Position numbers and translations under genes: made by a program
Assembly (NCBI GenBank): GCA_015233675.1
Contig: JADFXH010000012.1
Location: 1 to 57,711, forward strand
Length of the DNA: 57,711 bases
Source: Candidatus Omnitrophota bacterium
GTDB lineage: Bacteria; Omnitrophota; Gorgyraeia; Zapsychrales; Fredricksoniimonadaceae
Direction: 5' to 3'
The notes under the pieces: generated by a model
Seen by the model: the letters and a program-made list of their open reading frames with translations, nothing else
What the model was told of the DNA's origin: nothing
The model's database searches: none
In this document: positions 29,127-33,745 of the stretch, piece by piece
Layout: each line of letters starts with the position of its first letter
Numbering within the stretch: the stretch's first letter is position 1

Positions 29127-29159
29127 CCCTCTCCCTTTCCCTCCCCTTAAGGGGGAGGG
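29127..29159. repeat. REP-like palindrome
   Basis: ccctctcccttt-CCCTCCCC-ttaag-GGGGAGGG. Confidence 0.6.
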
Positions 29160-29203
29160 AATTTTTTCTTAATACAGACCTGTTACGAAAAATAAAAAAA
29201 CAC

Positions 29204-29460: not shown

Positions 29461-29478
29461 ATAAATTTGGAGGACAAA

Positions 29479-29670
29479 ATGAGTAAAAAGCAGAACCAAA
29501 AGAATATTGTGAATGATGCCATTATCAAGGATATTGCGGAAGCTGTCGGATCATTAGAATACGGAATAGTCACAATTAAAGTGCATGAAACTAAGATCAT
29601 TCAAATCGACATTACTGAAAAAAAGCGCTTTGATGATGTCTGGCGCATTGAAGGAGGTGGTGGAATATAG
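29479..29670 (+). CDS. YezD/DUF2292-like small protein with an EGGGGI tail
   Basis: GSLEYGIVTIKVHETKIIQIDITEKKRF; GGAGG RBS; ATG at 29479. Confidence 0.8.
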   Translation: MSKKQNQKNIVNDAIIKDIAEAVGSLEYGIVTIKVHETKIIQIDITEKKRFDDVWRIEGGGGI

Positions 29671-29754
29671 ACATCTTATATTAGAGAAGTTTGCTGTAAA
29701 TTGACCGTACAAAACGGCAATGTTAAAAAAATCAATAAAAAATAAAAATCGAAT

Positions 29755-29805: not shown

Positions 29806-30669
29806 ATGAAACACGTAATCAAATTAGCATTAATCGTTTTAGGTGTTATTTTTGCTGGAAATCAGGCTTGGGCAGGACTTCCTTTAAATAACCTGGAAGG
29901 CGTTGGCGGTGTTGCGTTTAATCCGCTGGCGTATCCCGCAGAAGGAGACCCTCTCTATAGTATCGGAGATACCGAGGTCATAAGCAAGCCAAGGTTTGGT
30001 ACATGGTACGCCCGCCTGGAGCAACCAAAGATCGATTGGGGGTCTATTGGGGGTGCCACGACCTTATTTAAGAGATTAGAAGTTTCAGAAGGTTATCAAT
30101 ACATTTCATGGGCGATTCCTGGGAAGGATTTCCATAAGAATAATATTGGGGCCAAACTTGTGTTATTGCCGGAGAATTCTTTTGATACAAAGTTTCTTCC
30201 CGAAATCTCTGTTGGAACGATTTATAAAACAACGAGCGATAAAGTCCTTCGTCAACTGGGATTGCCGACACACGGATCAGGTGAGGATTGGTATGCTGTC
30301 GCGACGAAAACAATCACTCAGCTGCCTTTGCCGGTTGTCCTGTCAGCTGGTGTTCTTTCGTCAGAAGAGGTTGGGACCGGTGTTCTTGGTTTTACAAATG
30401 AAAGAAGAGAAACCGCTTTTGGAAACGTTGATGTTGTTCTGCCGCACAACTTTGCTGTGGGCTATGAATTCAAACAAGGAGAAGAATACAATAATACAAC
30501 ACCAATACATGGAAATGCCAATTATTGGGATGTGCATGTGGCATGGCTGGCGAATAAGAACCTTACTCTTGTTTTGGCCTATACCGATACGGGAAGGTAC
30601 AATCTTGCCCATAATACAAAGTATGGATTGGGAAGCGGGCCTGTTTTAAGCGCGCAATATGCGTTTTAA
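29806..30669 (+). CDS. Outer-membrane beta-barrel protein (DUF3034-like)
   Basis: Signal peptide ...AWA, LEGVGGVAFNPLAY, alternating strands, C-terminal YAF. Confidence 0.6.
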   Translation: MKHVIKLALIVLGVIFAGNQAWAGLPLNNLEGVGGVAFNPLAYPAEGDPLYSIGDTEVISKPRFGTWYARLEQPKIDWGSIGGATTLFKRLEVSEGYQYISWAIPGKDFHKNNIGAKLVLLPENSFDTKFLPEISVGTIYKTTSDKVLRQLGLPTHGSGEDWYAVATKTITQLPLPVVLSAGVLSSEEVGTGVLGFTNERRETAFGNVDVVLPHNFAVGYEFKQGEEYNNTTPIHGNANYWDVHVAWLANKNLTLVLAYTDTGRYNLAHNTKYGLGSGPVLSAQYAF

Positions 30670-30721: not shown

Positions 30722-32059
<1,338 letters not shown>

Positions 32060-32068
32060 GAGGGGTTT

Positions 32069-33004
32069 ATGGCAAAAATATTTATAGACATCACTAAAAC
32101 CATTGGCAACACGCCGTTAGTACGGCTAAATCGCATCACCGAAGGCAGTGAGGCAGAGGTGCTGGTAAAACTGGAATCCTTTAATCCGCTTTCAAGCGTT
32201 AAGGACAGGCTCGGAATTGCGCTTATTGAAGATGCTGAAAAAAAAGGACTTCTTAAAAAAGACACAGTCATTATCGAGCCTACCAGCGGCAATACGGGAA
32301 TTGCCTTGGCTTTTATTGCTGCGGCTAAAGGCTACAAATTGATCCTTACTATGCCGGACACCATGAGTCTTGAGCGCAGGCAATTACTTAAGATTTTTGG
32401 AGCTGAGTTGGTCTTGACTGAAGGGTCAAAAGGCATGAAAGGTGCTATTGAAAAAGCCGAGGAACTCGCTCGCAGCACACCTAACAGCTTTGTCCCGCAG
32501 CAATTTAATAACCCTGCTAATCCTGAAATTCACCGCAAGACTACGGCTGAGGAAATTTGGAATGATACTGATGGTAAAGTTGACATCCTGATTTCCGGCA
32601 TAGGAACGGGAGGTACTATTACAGGTGTGGCCGAAGTCATAAAAAAAAGAAAGAAAAGTTTTAAGGCAATTGCCGTCGAGCCTGATGCTTCTCCGGTTTT
32701 GTCCGGGGGTGTTCCCGGGCCGCATAAGATCCAGGGCATAGGTGCCGGGTTCGTGCCCAAGGTTTTAAATCGTGATATCATCGATGAGGTTATCCGCGTT
32801 ACCAATGAAAATGCCGGAGAAACTGCACGTCGTGCCGCTCGTTTGGAAGGCATTCTTGTTGGGATTTCAAGCGGAGCTGCTTTGTGGGCAGGACTCGAGG
32901 TTGCTAAACGCAAAGAAAATAAAGGGAAAACCATTGTTGTGGTATTGCCGGATACCGGCGAACGGTATCTGTCAACATGGCTTTTCCAAGAAGTTAAGGC
33001 ATGA
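32069..33004 (+). CDS. cysK: Cysteine synthase A
   Basis: [52 protein letters not shown]. Confidence 0.96.
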
Positions 33005-33044: not shown

Positions 33045-33308
33045 ATGGAAAATAAAAAGTTACGTATTTATTGCCCGAATGGACTTCATTTACGAGAAGC
33101 GGCCCGCGTTGTTACGGCTGCAAGAAAATTTATTTCTAAGATCCAGATTTGGCATAATTCTACCAAAGCCGATACGCATTCAATCCTCGAGGTGTTATTG
33201 TTGGGGGCCCCTCAAAATTCAGAAATCACATTGGTGATAGAAGGGGCGGACGAAAAAGAGGCAATGAATGAATTAATGCAGATATTTCAGGATGGGGGAG
33301 GGATTTAA
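33045..33308 (+). CDS. HPr-like phosphocarrier protein with a C-terminal FQDGGGI tail
   Basis: CPNGLHLREA (His15 equivalent), HSILEVLLLG (Ser46 equivalent), GADEKEAM. Confidence 0.85.
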   Translation: MENKKLRIYCPNGLHLREAARVVTAARKFISKIQIWHNSTKADTHSILEVLLLGAPQNSEITLVIEGADEKEAMNELMQIFQDGGGI

Positions 33309-33745
33309 ATAGAATACGTTGGTGCTTTTTTAACTGATTCAACCTGATCTGCCAGATCAGCGAAAGTGATATGATCTACAACATCGGAAGTTAATTTAAA
33401 CACCTTTTGCCAAATTGGCCGGAATGCGCATTTGTATAAGTCTCCGCAAGCGGTGTATTTTTTGTTGACGCAGGCAATAGGTTCGAGCGGACCATCGACA
33501 AATCGTACAACTTCTCCTAAAGTTATATTTTGGGGCGGCCTGGAAAGTAAATAGCCGCCAACCTTGCCTCGGCGGCTTTCAATAAAACCGCCTTTTTTGA
33601 GTTCTAATAAAATTTGTTCGAGAAATTTAGTAGGAGCATCAATGCGACTTGCAATTGCAGGAATGGTAACTAATCCTTCGTGATAGTGAAGCGCTAAATC
33701 TAGAATTGCTTTTAACGCGTAGTCGCCTTTATGAGTAATTTTCAT
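33305..33745 (-). CDS. Rrf2-family regulator (IscR/CymR-like)
   Basis: KGDYALKAILDLA, FLEQILLELKKGG, SRRGKVGGYLL, three Cys, ends PTYSI. Confidence 0.92.
   Translation of the reverse strand: MKITHKGDYALKAILDLALHYHEGLVTIPAIASRIDAPTKFLEQILLELKKGGFIESRRGKVGGYLLSRPPQNITLGEVVRFVDGPLEPIACVNKKYTACGDLYKCAFRPIWQKVFKLTSDVVDHITFADLADQVESVKKAPTYSI

What the first reader, a model, noticed from the sequence alone, without database searches (positions are those of the whole stretch)
29479..29670. YezD/DUF2292-like first gene also ends in a Gly-rich Ile tail (EGGGGI)
Seen: the DUF2292-like core (YGIVTIKVHETKIIQIDITEKKRF) is extended by DDVWRIEGGGGI. With the HPr-like (DGGGI) and Rrf2 (TYSI) proteins, three small proteins at one locus end in Ile. 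Inference: a CysK-centred signalling hub in which several partners compete for one docking pocket. This would give a function to an uncharacterised sulfur-linked family.
Basis: partly seen in the sequence, partly recalled or inferred. Interest (0 to 1): 0.65.

Follow-up and report, generated by a model that had tools for sequence, protein, structure and literature searches.

The report
YezD small protein with CysK-docking tail
A 63-residue protein of the uncharacterised DUF2292/YezD family, first gene of a cysteine/methionine synthesis operon, ends in a conserved flexible Gly-x-Gly-Ile tail like the one serine acetyltransferase uses to plug into cysteine synthase (CysK), so it is probably a new CysK-binding partner, though no binding has been measured.

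Summary
Window 29479-29670 encodes a 63-aa DUF2292/YezD protein whose core is followed by DDVWRIEGGGGI. The tail is not chance. In the own genome only 3 of 8014 ORFs end in GGGI, and two of them (YezD and the HPr-like protein) flank cysK.

Across the family, proteins either stop within 4 residues of the core or carry an 11-13-residue extension ending G-x-G-I. All Ile and Gly codons are used, so selection acts on the protein. Tandem two-domain relatives end YGDGI, the last five residues of E. coli CysE. The CdiA-CT toxin ends GYGI. Both are proven CysK active-site plugs.

In loci with at least 6 kb of flank, tailed YezD genes lie within 6 kb of cysK or metY in 45 of 49 cases, and tail-less ones in 1 of 31. 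AlphaFold leaves the tail disordered. The window's CysK keeps the peptide-binding residues.

Best reading (about 0.6): an O-acetylserine-sensitive CysK-docking partner sharing the pocket with CysE (...DFYI) and a CymR-like Rrf2 (...TYSI). Binding, competition and physiological effect are untested. The tail names a partner, not the function of the DUF2292 core.

The scan reached the same idea earlier on another Omnitrophota genome (e1-871550).

The parts
29479..29670 (+). yezD-like gene (63 aa, DUF2292), first cistron of the operon
   Evidence: ORF and sequence. Pfam PF10055 at 46.2 bits against cut-off 22. The 63-aa length is shared by nearly all homologues.
29469..29474 (+). Shine-Dalgarno-like GGAGGA, 4 nt before the ATG
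   Evidence: Read directly from the sequence.
29524..29631 (+). DUF2292 core (residues 16-51); with the preceding helix it models as helix plus beta-hairpin
   Evidence: Pfam and whole-genome matches. AlphaFold2 model: helix 3-24, strands 29-36 and 39-47.
29632..29667 (+). 12-residue C-terminal extension DDVWRIEGGGGI (linker plus docking motif)
   Evidence: Lies outside the Pfam core. Extensions ending G-x-G-I are 11-13 residues long, rarely 15, across the family. Residues 58-63 have pLDDT below 50.
29656..29667 (+). terminal G-G-G-I motif, the proposed CysK active-site plug
   Evidence: Among 66 distinct 3' ends of tailed genes, all 3 Ile codons and all 4 Gly codons are used, followed by all 3 stop codons. 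Same G-x-G-I pattern as E. coli CysE GDGI and CdiA-CT GYGI.
29806..30669 (+). DUF3034 protein with signal peptide and C-terminal ...YAF; probable outer-membrane channel
   Evidence: Pfam PF11231 at 74.5 bits. Syntenic in most Omnitrophota loci.
30767..32059 (+). MetY, O-acetylhomoserine sulfhydrylase
   Evidence: TIGR01326 at 680.7 bits against cut-off 495.
32069..33004 (+). CysK (cysteine synthase A), the proposed docking target
   Evidence: TIGR01139 at 480.6 bits against cut-off 351. 61% identical to E. coli CysK, with the TSGNT loop, the QQF glutamine and the CysK-specific [13 protein letters not shown] segment that CysM lacks.
33045..33308 (+). HPr-like protein ending DGGGI (second tailed small protein)
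   Evidence: PF00381 at 76.1 bits. Tail read. Its tail codons differ from those of yezD.
33305..33745 (-). Rrf2-family regulator ending TYSI (CymR-like tail)
   Evidence: PF02082 at 127 bits. The CymR model scores 90 bits, below its cut-off of 195. In 45 of 46 loci the Rrf2 next to a DUF2292 gene ends aromatic-x-Ile.
29132..29161 (+). terminator-like hairpin closing the upstream gene, so the yezD operon is a separate transcription unit
   Evidence: Consensus scan: 11-bp stem followed by a T run.

Best explanation
YezD is a small cytoplasmic protein built as helix plus beta-hairpin. Its 12-residue flexible C-terminal extension ends G-G-G-I and most likely inserts its terminal isoleucine into the active-site cleft of CysK. 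CysE, CymR and the CdiA-CT toxin dock in that way.

Binding would be competitive with O-acetylserine and with the other Ile-tailed proteins of this genome: CysE (...DFYI), the Rrf2 regulator (...TYSI) and the HPr-like protein (...DGGGI).

YezD is the first cistron of an operon induced by sulfur-amino-acid limitation. I therefore infer that it accumulates during starvation and changes which partner occupies CysK. It could displace the CymR-like repressor or CysE, or throttle CysK when sulfide returns.

Shown here: the tail, its conservation, its match to known plugs and its genomic linkage to cysK/metY. Inferred: the docking itself. More speculative: the regulatory consequence.
For: 1. Motif identity. 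E. coli CysE ends FEYGDGI. CdiA-CT ends KGYGI, and its last 11 residues fill the CysK cleft. The last 11 residues of CysE are the disordered anchor (PMC6829319; PMC12895370). Single-domain YezD ends G-[GDESAV]-G-I. Tandem two-domain DUF2292 proteins end (L/I/M/T)YGDGI.

2. All-or-none tails. I searched 1.84 billion cluster representatives with the tail-less core. Of 75 representatives with a complete core, 22 stop within 4 residues of it, none has a 5-8-residue extension, and 45 have 9-16 residues. Of those 45, 40 end in Ile and 38 end G-x-G-I. None of the 22 short forms ends in Ile. Extensions are 11-13 residues, the length of the CysE and CdiA anchors.

3. Protein-level selection. All Ile and Gly codons are used at the conserved positions, while the linker sequences differ between lineages: DDVW..E.GGGI, NRPVNMDGAGI, SQVEGIYGDGI.

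4. Linkage. In loci with at least 6 kb of flank, cysK or metY lies within 6 kb in 45 of 49 tailed cases and 1 of 31 tail-less cases (Fisher 1.5e-16). Counted by 65%-identity core clusters this is 18 of 19 against 1 of 13 (p = 7e-7). Gene order varies: yezD lies before metY-cysK, directly after cysK, or directly before cysK.

5. Flexibility. The tail has pLDDT below 50 in the monomer, and the tail of the tandem model has no predicted secondary structure.

6. A competent target. The window's CysK has the canonical peptide-binding residues (residue list from PMC12895370).

7. Precedent in the same locus type. The CymR tail YMFYI binds S. aureus CysK at 25 nM (bioRxiv 10.1101/2024.09.19.614015). 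Rrf2 genes next to yezD end aromatic-x-I in 45 of 46 loci.

8. Rarity. Two of the three GGGI-ending ORFs in the genome flank cysK.
Against: No binding, structural or genetic data exist for any DUF2292 protein, and I found no paper on the family's function.

The linkage statistics are inflated by shared ancestry. Most tailed loci come from Omnitrophota and Desulfobacterota, and part of the sample was retrieved by similarity to this window.

MetY is linked about as often as CysK (43 against 41 of 49 loci), so context alone does not pick CysK as the target.

Four of 49 tailed loci show neither gene nearby. L096 heads a sulfate-uptake operon, and L097 sits beside an aminotransferase and a transketolase.

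The -2 position is usually Gly here, whereas the best CysE/CymR-derived peptides carry an aromatic or acidic residue near that position, so affinity could be low.

CysK is nearly universal in the phylum (109 of 121 genomes above cut-off), so genome-level co-occurrence is uninformative.
Confidence: 0.6

Rival explanations
1. YezD is a sulfur-carrier protein of the ThiS/MoaD/CysO/HcyS kind. The terminal Ile is clipped to expose Gly-Gly, which is thiocarboxylated and donates sulfur to MetY or CysK.
For: The window protein ends GGGGI and sits with metY and cysK. From general knowledge, carriers with extra residues after Gly-Gly exist and feed MetY or CysM in some bacteria.
Against: Across the family the motif is G-x-G-I with x = D, E, S, A or V, so removing Ile would not leave Gly-Gly. 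The models show helix plus beta-hairpin units, not a beta-grasp, and there is no ThiS Pfam match. No ThiF-type E1 lies in the conserved neighbourhood: only 4 of 126 loci have one within reach. In L121 that E1 sits beside its own genuine ThiS gene, while yezD heads the next operon. The residue after the last Gly is always Ile. The HPr-like protein carries the same tail on an unrelated fold.
Confidence: 0.05
2. The tail docks into MetY (O-acetylhomoserine sulfhydrylase) or another operon protein rather than CysK.
For: metY is as tightly linked as cysK. The tandem form in L039 lies by metY and the methionine transporter genes with no cysK in view.
Against: I know of no precedent for tail docking into this PLP fold. 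Some loci have cysK but no close MetY homologue next to yezD (L029, L066). The motif equals known CysK plugs residue for residue.
Confidence: 0.1
3. The tail is a generic C-terminal signal such as a degradation tag, PDZ-type ligand or oligomerisation strand, or it has no partner-specific role. Its linkage to cysK reflects only inheritance of one ancestral operon.
For: Hydrophobic C-termini serve such roles elsewhere. Most tailed loci belong to two phyla, so independent events are few. Four tailed loci lack cysK and metY nearby.
Against: Such signals usually tolerate Val, Leu or Phe. Here Ile is found in 40 of 45 extended representatives, and the other five end in K, R, T or V on unrelated tails. 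Linkers diverge while G-x-G-I stays. Gene order around cysK varies. Unrelated proteins in the same loci (HPr-like, Rrf2) carry Ile tails too.
Confidence: 0.2

Closest known systems
Cysteine synthase complex: CysE C-terminal tail in the CysK active site (E. coli/Salmonella ...EYGDGI)
   Same: A flexible tail of about 11 residues ending G-x-G-I with an invariant terminal Ile. A canonical CysK is present. Tandem DUF2292 relatives reproduce YGDGI exactly.
   Different: The carrier is a 63-aa non-enzymatic protein of unknown function, not the acetyltransferase that makes CysK's substrate. Position -2 is usually Gly. No binding has been shown.
CymR-CysK regulatory complex (Bacillus subtilis, Staphylococcus aureus)
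   Same: An Rrf2 regulator with an aromatic-x-Ile tail is encoded beside yezD in 45 of 46 loci. The S. aureus CymR tail YMFYI binds CysK at 25 nM. YezD would share the same pocket and the same O-acetylserine sensitivity.
   Different: YezD has no DNA-binding domain. The Rrf2 here scores below the CymR model cut-off (90 against 195 bits) and comes from Omnitrophota, whereas the paper says CymR has been seen only in Gram-positives.
CdiA-CT(EC536) toxin activation by CysK (tail ...KGYGI)
   Same: An unrelated protein that acquired a G-x-G-I tail to use CysK as a partner. This shows the docking mode is portable between folds.
   Different: YezD is a chromosomal housekeeping-operon protein with no nuclease or toxin domain.
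OscA / YezD (DUF2292) sulfur-starvation response proteins of Pseudomonas and Bacillus
   Same: Same Pfam core. A small first gene of starvation-type operons.
   Different: The window protein scores 27.4 bits against the OscA model (cut-off 85). OscA-like and Bacillus-like members found here end 0-3 residues after the core and have no Ile tail.

Membership tests
DUF2292 / YezD (Pfam PF10055) | Match to the 37-position family profile above the gathering score | tested here: met
   46.2 bits against cut-off 22, residues 16-51. Confirmed by the whole-genome search.
OscA equivalog (NCBIfam NF033785) | Score above the curated equivalog cut-off | tested here: not met
   27.4 bits against cut-off 85. 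Same superfamily, but not an OscA orthologue.
CysK-docking partners (CysE, CymR, CdiA-CT, EGL-9 class) | C-terminal isoleucine, invariant among orthologues | tested here: met
   115 of 120 close homologues. 30 of 30 YezD genes in related genome loci. 40 of 45 extended cluster representatives.
CysK-docking partners (CysE, CymR, CdiA-CT, EGL-9 class) | Terminal residues lie on a flexible, exposed tail of about 10 residues | tested here: met
   Residues 58-63 have pLDDT below 50 and no secondary structure. The extension is 11-13 residues, against the 11-residue CysE and CdiA anchors. This is a prediction only.
CysK-docking partners (CysE, CymR, CdiA-CT, EGL-9 class) | A CysK-type (not CysM-type) enzyme with the peptide-binding residues in the same organism | tested here: met
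   TIGR01139 at 480.6 bits. The TSGNT loop, the Gln of QQF and the CysK-specific loop are present. A second CysK paralogue is 86% identical.
CysK-docking partners (CysE, CymR, CdiA-CT, EGL-9 class) | Physical binding in the CysK active site that depends on the terminal Ile and is released by O-acetylserine | not testable with these tools
   Needs protein or peptide binding assays.
Sulfur-carrier proteins (ThiS/MoaD/CysO) | Beta-grasp fold and an invariant C-terminal Gly-Gly, bare or exposed by clipping | tested here: not met
   Helix plus beta-hairpin model and no ThiS match. Family tails GDGI, GEGI, GSGI and GAGI would not leave Gly-Gly.
Sulfur-carrier proteins (ThiS/MoaD/CysO) | Partner E1 (ThiF/MoeB) encoded nearby | tested here: not met
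   Own-genome ThiF homologues lie on another contig. Only 4 of 126 DUF2292 loci have a ThiF-like gene, and in L121 it sits with its own ThiS.

The most novel reading that the evidence does not exclude
In Omnitrophota and some Desulfobacterota, CysK may be a multi-partner sensor of O-acetylserine and sulfide. At least four unrelated proteins would compete for its active site through C-terminal Ile tails: CysE, a CymR-like Rrf2 repressor, tailed YezD and a tailed HPr paralogue. In this reading tailed YezD is a starvation-induced partner-switching factor. It would displace the repressor or CysE from CysK, giving feedback or memory to the sulfur-starvation response. It would also give DUF2292 its first molecular role.
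Probability: 0.25. Interest if true: 0.75.

Novelty: new variant of a known kind. Interest (0 to 1): 0.6.

Why it matters
DUF2292/YezD/OscA is a widespread small-protein family tied to nutrient-starvation operons, and it has no known mechanism. A conserved CysE-like plug on one subfamily turns 'unknown function' into a direct experiment: does YezD bind CysK through its terminal Ile, and does O-acetylserine release it?

If it does, CysK's role as a regulatory hub extends to a new protein family and to uncultured phyla. That role is so far documented for CysE, CymR, a CDI toxin and nematode EGL-9. Tail-swapping on small proteins would then emerge as a general way to wire new partners into sulfur sensing.

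The same data show CymR-type Ile-tailed Rrf2 regulators outside the Gram-positives.

Tried and rejected
- **Solved structures.** The sequence search for YezD gave only chance hits to GroEL, E about 1.
- **Fold searches.** The monomer model (best E 4.9) and the tandem model (best E 0.09, TM below 0.35) gave no significant match. The core fold stays unassigned.
- **Literature.** Searches for DUF2292, YezD and OscA found only transcriptome or genome mentions and no mechanism.
- **Metagenome scan.** A narrower alignment (A3) worked.
- **Genome-level co-occurrence.** YezD against CysK in 121 Omnitrophota genomes is uninformative, because CysK is nearly universal.
- **MetX as a fifth hub member.** The MetX of the second metY-cysK cluster ends DGYAI, but none of 29 relatives ends in Ile, so I do not count it.
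- **Third GGGI-ending ORF.** It is a prepilin-type protein and unrelated.
- **Long open frame in L068.** A 453-aa frame ends in a DUF2292 domain but has no other domain. It is probably not a fusion.
- **Recent copying of the tail.** The YezD and HPr-like tails use different codons, so there is no sign of recent DNA copying between them.
- **Complex model.** A CysK-YezD complex could not be modelled, because the structure tool takes single natural chains only.

Full report
**What is there.** The ORF at 29479-29670 (+) has a strong GGAGGA ribosome-binding site 4 nt upstream. It encodes 63 residues: MSKKQNQKNIVNDAIIKDIAEAVGSLEYGIVTIKVHETKIIQIDITEKKRFDDVWRIEGGGGI. Pfam DUF2292 covers residues 16-51 at 46.2 bits against a cut-off of 22. 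The OscA equivalog model scores only 27.4 bits against 85.

Downstream on the same strand lie four genes:
- a DUF3034 protein with a signal peptide and a C-terminal ...YAF, probably an outer-membrane channel;
- MetY;
- CysK;
- an HPr-like protein ending DGGGI.

An Rrf2 regulator ending TYSI converges on the HPr-like gene. A strong terminator-like hairpin at 29132-29161 separates the operon from the upstream gene. The genome is a 2.1-Mb Omnitrophota assembly, 65% complete.

**Is the tail more than chance?** C-terminal Ile occurs in about 5-6% of long ORFs of this genome. Only 3 of 8014 ORFs of at least 50 aa end in GGGI. Two of them are YezD and the HPr-like protein, which flank cysK. The third is a prepilin-type protein on another contig.

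Of 120 homologues at 65-100% identity, 115 end in Ile, almost all as G-x-G-I. Most of the few exceptions I read are read-through or frameshifted calls. All 30 YezD genes recovered in the 31 related genome loci (29 Omnitrophota, 2 Desulfarculales) end G-x-G-I.

**Family-wide picture.** To avoid bias I searched 1.84 billion cluster representatives with the core alone, leaving the tail out. Of 75 representatives with a complete core:
- 22 stop within 4 residues of the core;
- none has a 5-8-residue extension;
- 45 have a 9-16-residue extension, of which 40 end in Ile and 38 end G-x-G-I.

None of the 22 short forms ends in Ile. So the tail is a discrete module of fixed length. Among the loci analysed, extensions ending G-x-G-I are 11-13 residues long, with one of 15.

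Linker sequences differ between lineages: DDVW..E.GGGI, NRPVNMDGAGI, VNPGGGFREGDGI, SQVEGIYGDGI. The last four residues stay. At the DNA level all three Ile codons, all four Gly codons and all three stop codons are used, so selection acts on the peptide rather than on the DNA.

A distinct class of tandem two-domain DUF2292 proteins ends (L/I/M/T)YGDGI or GEGI.

**Match to known CysK plugs.** Translating E. coli cysE gives ...FEYGDGI. PMC6829319 states that the last 11 residues of CysE (INHTFEYGDGI) are the disordered anchor. It also states that the last 11 residues of CdiA-CT (KIESALKGYGI) fill the CysK cleft.

PMC12895370 states that the terminal Ile gives about 80% of the binding energy. It names the CysK residues involved as T71, S72, T75 and Q145 in Pseudomonas numbering. 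A 2024 preprint shows the S. aureus CymR tail YMFYI in the CysK active site at 25 nM, and the S. aureus CysE tail DDYII.

YezD tails thus share the pattern (G-x-G-I), the length (11-13 residues) and, in the tandem forms, five identical residues with proven plugs. The window's CysK is 61% identical to E. coli CysK. It keeps the TSGNT loop, the QQF glutamine and the loop that distinguishes CysK from CysM. The genome's own CysE ends ...DIDFYI.

**Structure.** AlphaFold2 on 52 homologues gives mean pLDDT 68.6. The model has a helix at 3-24, a beta-hairpin at 29-36 and 39-47, a short helix at 53-56 and a tail at 58-63 with pLDDT below 50. The tandem form models as two such units with an unstructured tail. 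No solved structure matches by sequence or by fold.

**Genomic linkage.** I combined four sets of loci:
- the window and the related genome loci;
- 14 loci from a survey of 301 Desulfobacterota genomes, in which 15 genomes had a DUF2292 match, one of them the seed genome already counted among the related loci;
- 80 metagenome loci found with a mixed tailed and tail-less core alignment;
- 3 tandem-form loci.

In loci with at least 6 kb of flank, cysK or metY lies within 6 kb in 45 of 49 tailed cases and 1 of 31 tail-less cases (Fisher 1.5e-16). Counted per 65%-identity core cluster this is 18 of 19 against 1 of 13 (p = 7e-7). Related sequences are not independent and part of the sample was seeded from this window, so these p-values overstate the case.

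The arrangements do differ, which argues against a single frozen operon:
- Rrf2-yezD-(DUF3034)-metY-cysK;
- Rrf2-cysK-yezD (L060, L066);
- yezD-cysK (L029);
- HPr-metY-cysK-yezD (L099);
- tandem yezD followed by a Cys/Met PLP enzyme, two further genes and a PALP enzyme (L041).

The one tail-less yezD near cysK (L067) has a tailed HPr-like gene (...MDGAGI) next to that cysK instead.

There are exceptions. L096 and L121 have a tailed yezD heading a porin, sulfate-binding-protein and permease operon. L097 lies beside an aminotransferase and a transketolase.

Tail-less members sit behind Fur, DtxR or Rrf2 regulators and before porin or TonB-receptor genes. The core family is therefore not strictly sulfur-specific.

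**Rivals.**
- *Sulfur-carrier reading (clip Ile, thiocarboxylate Gly-Gly).* This fails on the variable -2 residue, on the fold and on the absence of a neighbouring E1. In L121 a genuine ThiS-ThiF pair lies just upstream of yezD.
- *MetY as the target.* Context cannot exclude this, since metY is present in 43 of 49 tailed loci against 41 for cysK. It has no precedent that I know of, and some loci have only cysK.
- *Generic C-terminal signal or pure shared ancestry.* This is weakened by the exclusive use of Ile, the divergent linkers and the varied gene orders.

**Mechanism proposed.**
- *Shown:* a conserved, flexible, CysE-like G-x-G-I tail on a small protein co-encoded with CysK.
- *Inferred (about 0.6):* the tail plugs into the CysK active site in an O-acetylserine-reversible way. 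It would compete with CysE and with the Rrf2, whose aromatic-x-Ile tail is present in 45 of 46 loci where an Rrf2 neighbours a DUF2292 gene.
- *Speculative (about 0.25):* as the first cistron of a starvation-induced operon, YezD shifts partner occupancy on CysK. It could act as an anti-repressor, add hysteresis, or brake cysteine synthesis when sulfide returns.

The activity of the DUF2292 core remains unknown. It has no conserved Cys. Its conserved residues are YG, Q and (E/K)K.R.

**Novelty and earlier notes.** I found no paper linking DUF2292 to CysK. The scan itself reached the same idea earlier on another Omnitrophota genome (e1-871550). It also treated the HPr-like tail of this window separately (e1-5241385). 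I class the finding as a new variant of a known kind: the known CysK docking mode on a new, uncharacterised carrier family. Interest 0.6.

Noticed in passing
own genome contig C11, locus L157 296-3858 (minus strand): A second metY-cysK pair (this CysK is 86% identical to the window's) is followed by metX (homoserine O-acetyltransferase), which ends DGYAI. None of the 29 MetX relatives I read from other Omnitrophota genomes ends in Ile, so this tail is lineage-specific or chance.
   Followed up: yes
loci L096, L114, L119, L121, L122, L125; window 29806-30669: DUF2292 genes, tailed or not, often sit between a regulator (Rrf2, Fur, DtxR) and an outer-membrane channel gene (DUF3034, Porin_O_P, OprB, DUF6662, TonB receptor). 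This recurring 'regulator, small protein, porin' module is unexplained.
   Followed up: partly
Rrf2 genes in L006-L036, L060-L070, L073-L151; window 33305-33745: Rrf2 regulators adjacent to DUF2292 genes end aromatic-x-Ile in 45 of 46 loci from Omnitrophota, Desulfobacterota and metagenomes. The 2024 CymR preprint says CymR has so far been seen only in Gram-positives.
   Followed up: partly
L067 2015-2275 (minus strand); L099, upstream of metY-cysK-yezD: HPr-like genes ending MDGAGI or TDGAGI lie beside cysK in other lineages. In L067 the neighbouring yezD has no tail. In L099 both proteins are tailed.
   Followed up: partly
L153 (E. coli K-12, NC_000913 2531500-2542000): E. coli CysM itself ends ...QGAGI, a G-x-G-I end. 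E. coli cysK lies directly upstream of ptsH (HPr), ptsI and crr, which echoes the cysK-HPr adjacency in the window.
   Followed up: no
L019 8216-9145: A second CysK-like paralogue (44% identical), directly after cysK, ends ...EDGYEI. This is a cysteine-synthase homologue with its own Ile tail.
   Followed up: no
proteins P0014, P0017, P0028; compare window 29668-29745: Some public gene calls continue past ...GGGGI with Q-T-S-Y..., matching the window's downstream sequence if its TAG stop is read as Gln. These could be a CAG variant or a gene-caller artefact. I did not resolve which.
   Followed up: no
L121 153-5229: A complete protein-thiocarboxylate cluster lies just upstream of a tailed yezD-porin-sulfate transporter operon. 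It comprises a ThiS-fused PALP enzyme, a sulfite-reductase-like protein, TusA, a second PALP enzyme, ThiS, ThiF and a NIL-domain protein.
   Followed up: partly
window 29656-29667: The Gly codons of the tail (GAA GGA GGT GGT GGA) form a perfect internal Shine-Dalgarno-like GGAGG inside the coding sequence, 135 nt before the next gene. This is probably incidental, since relatives use other Gly codons.
   Followed up: partly
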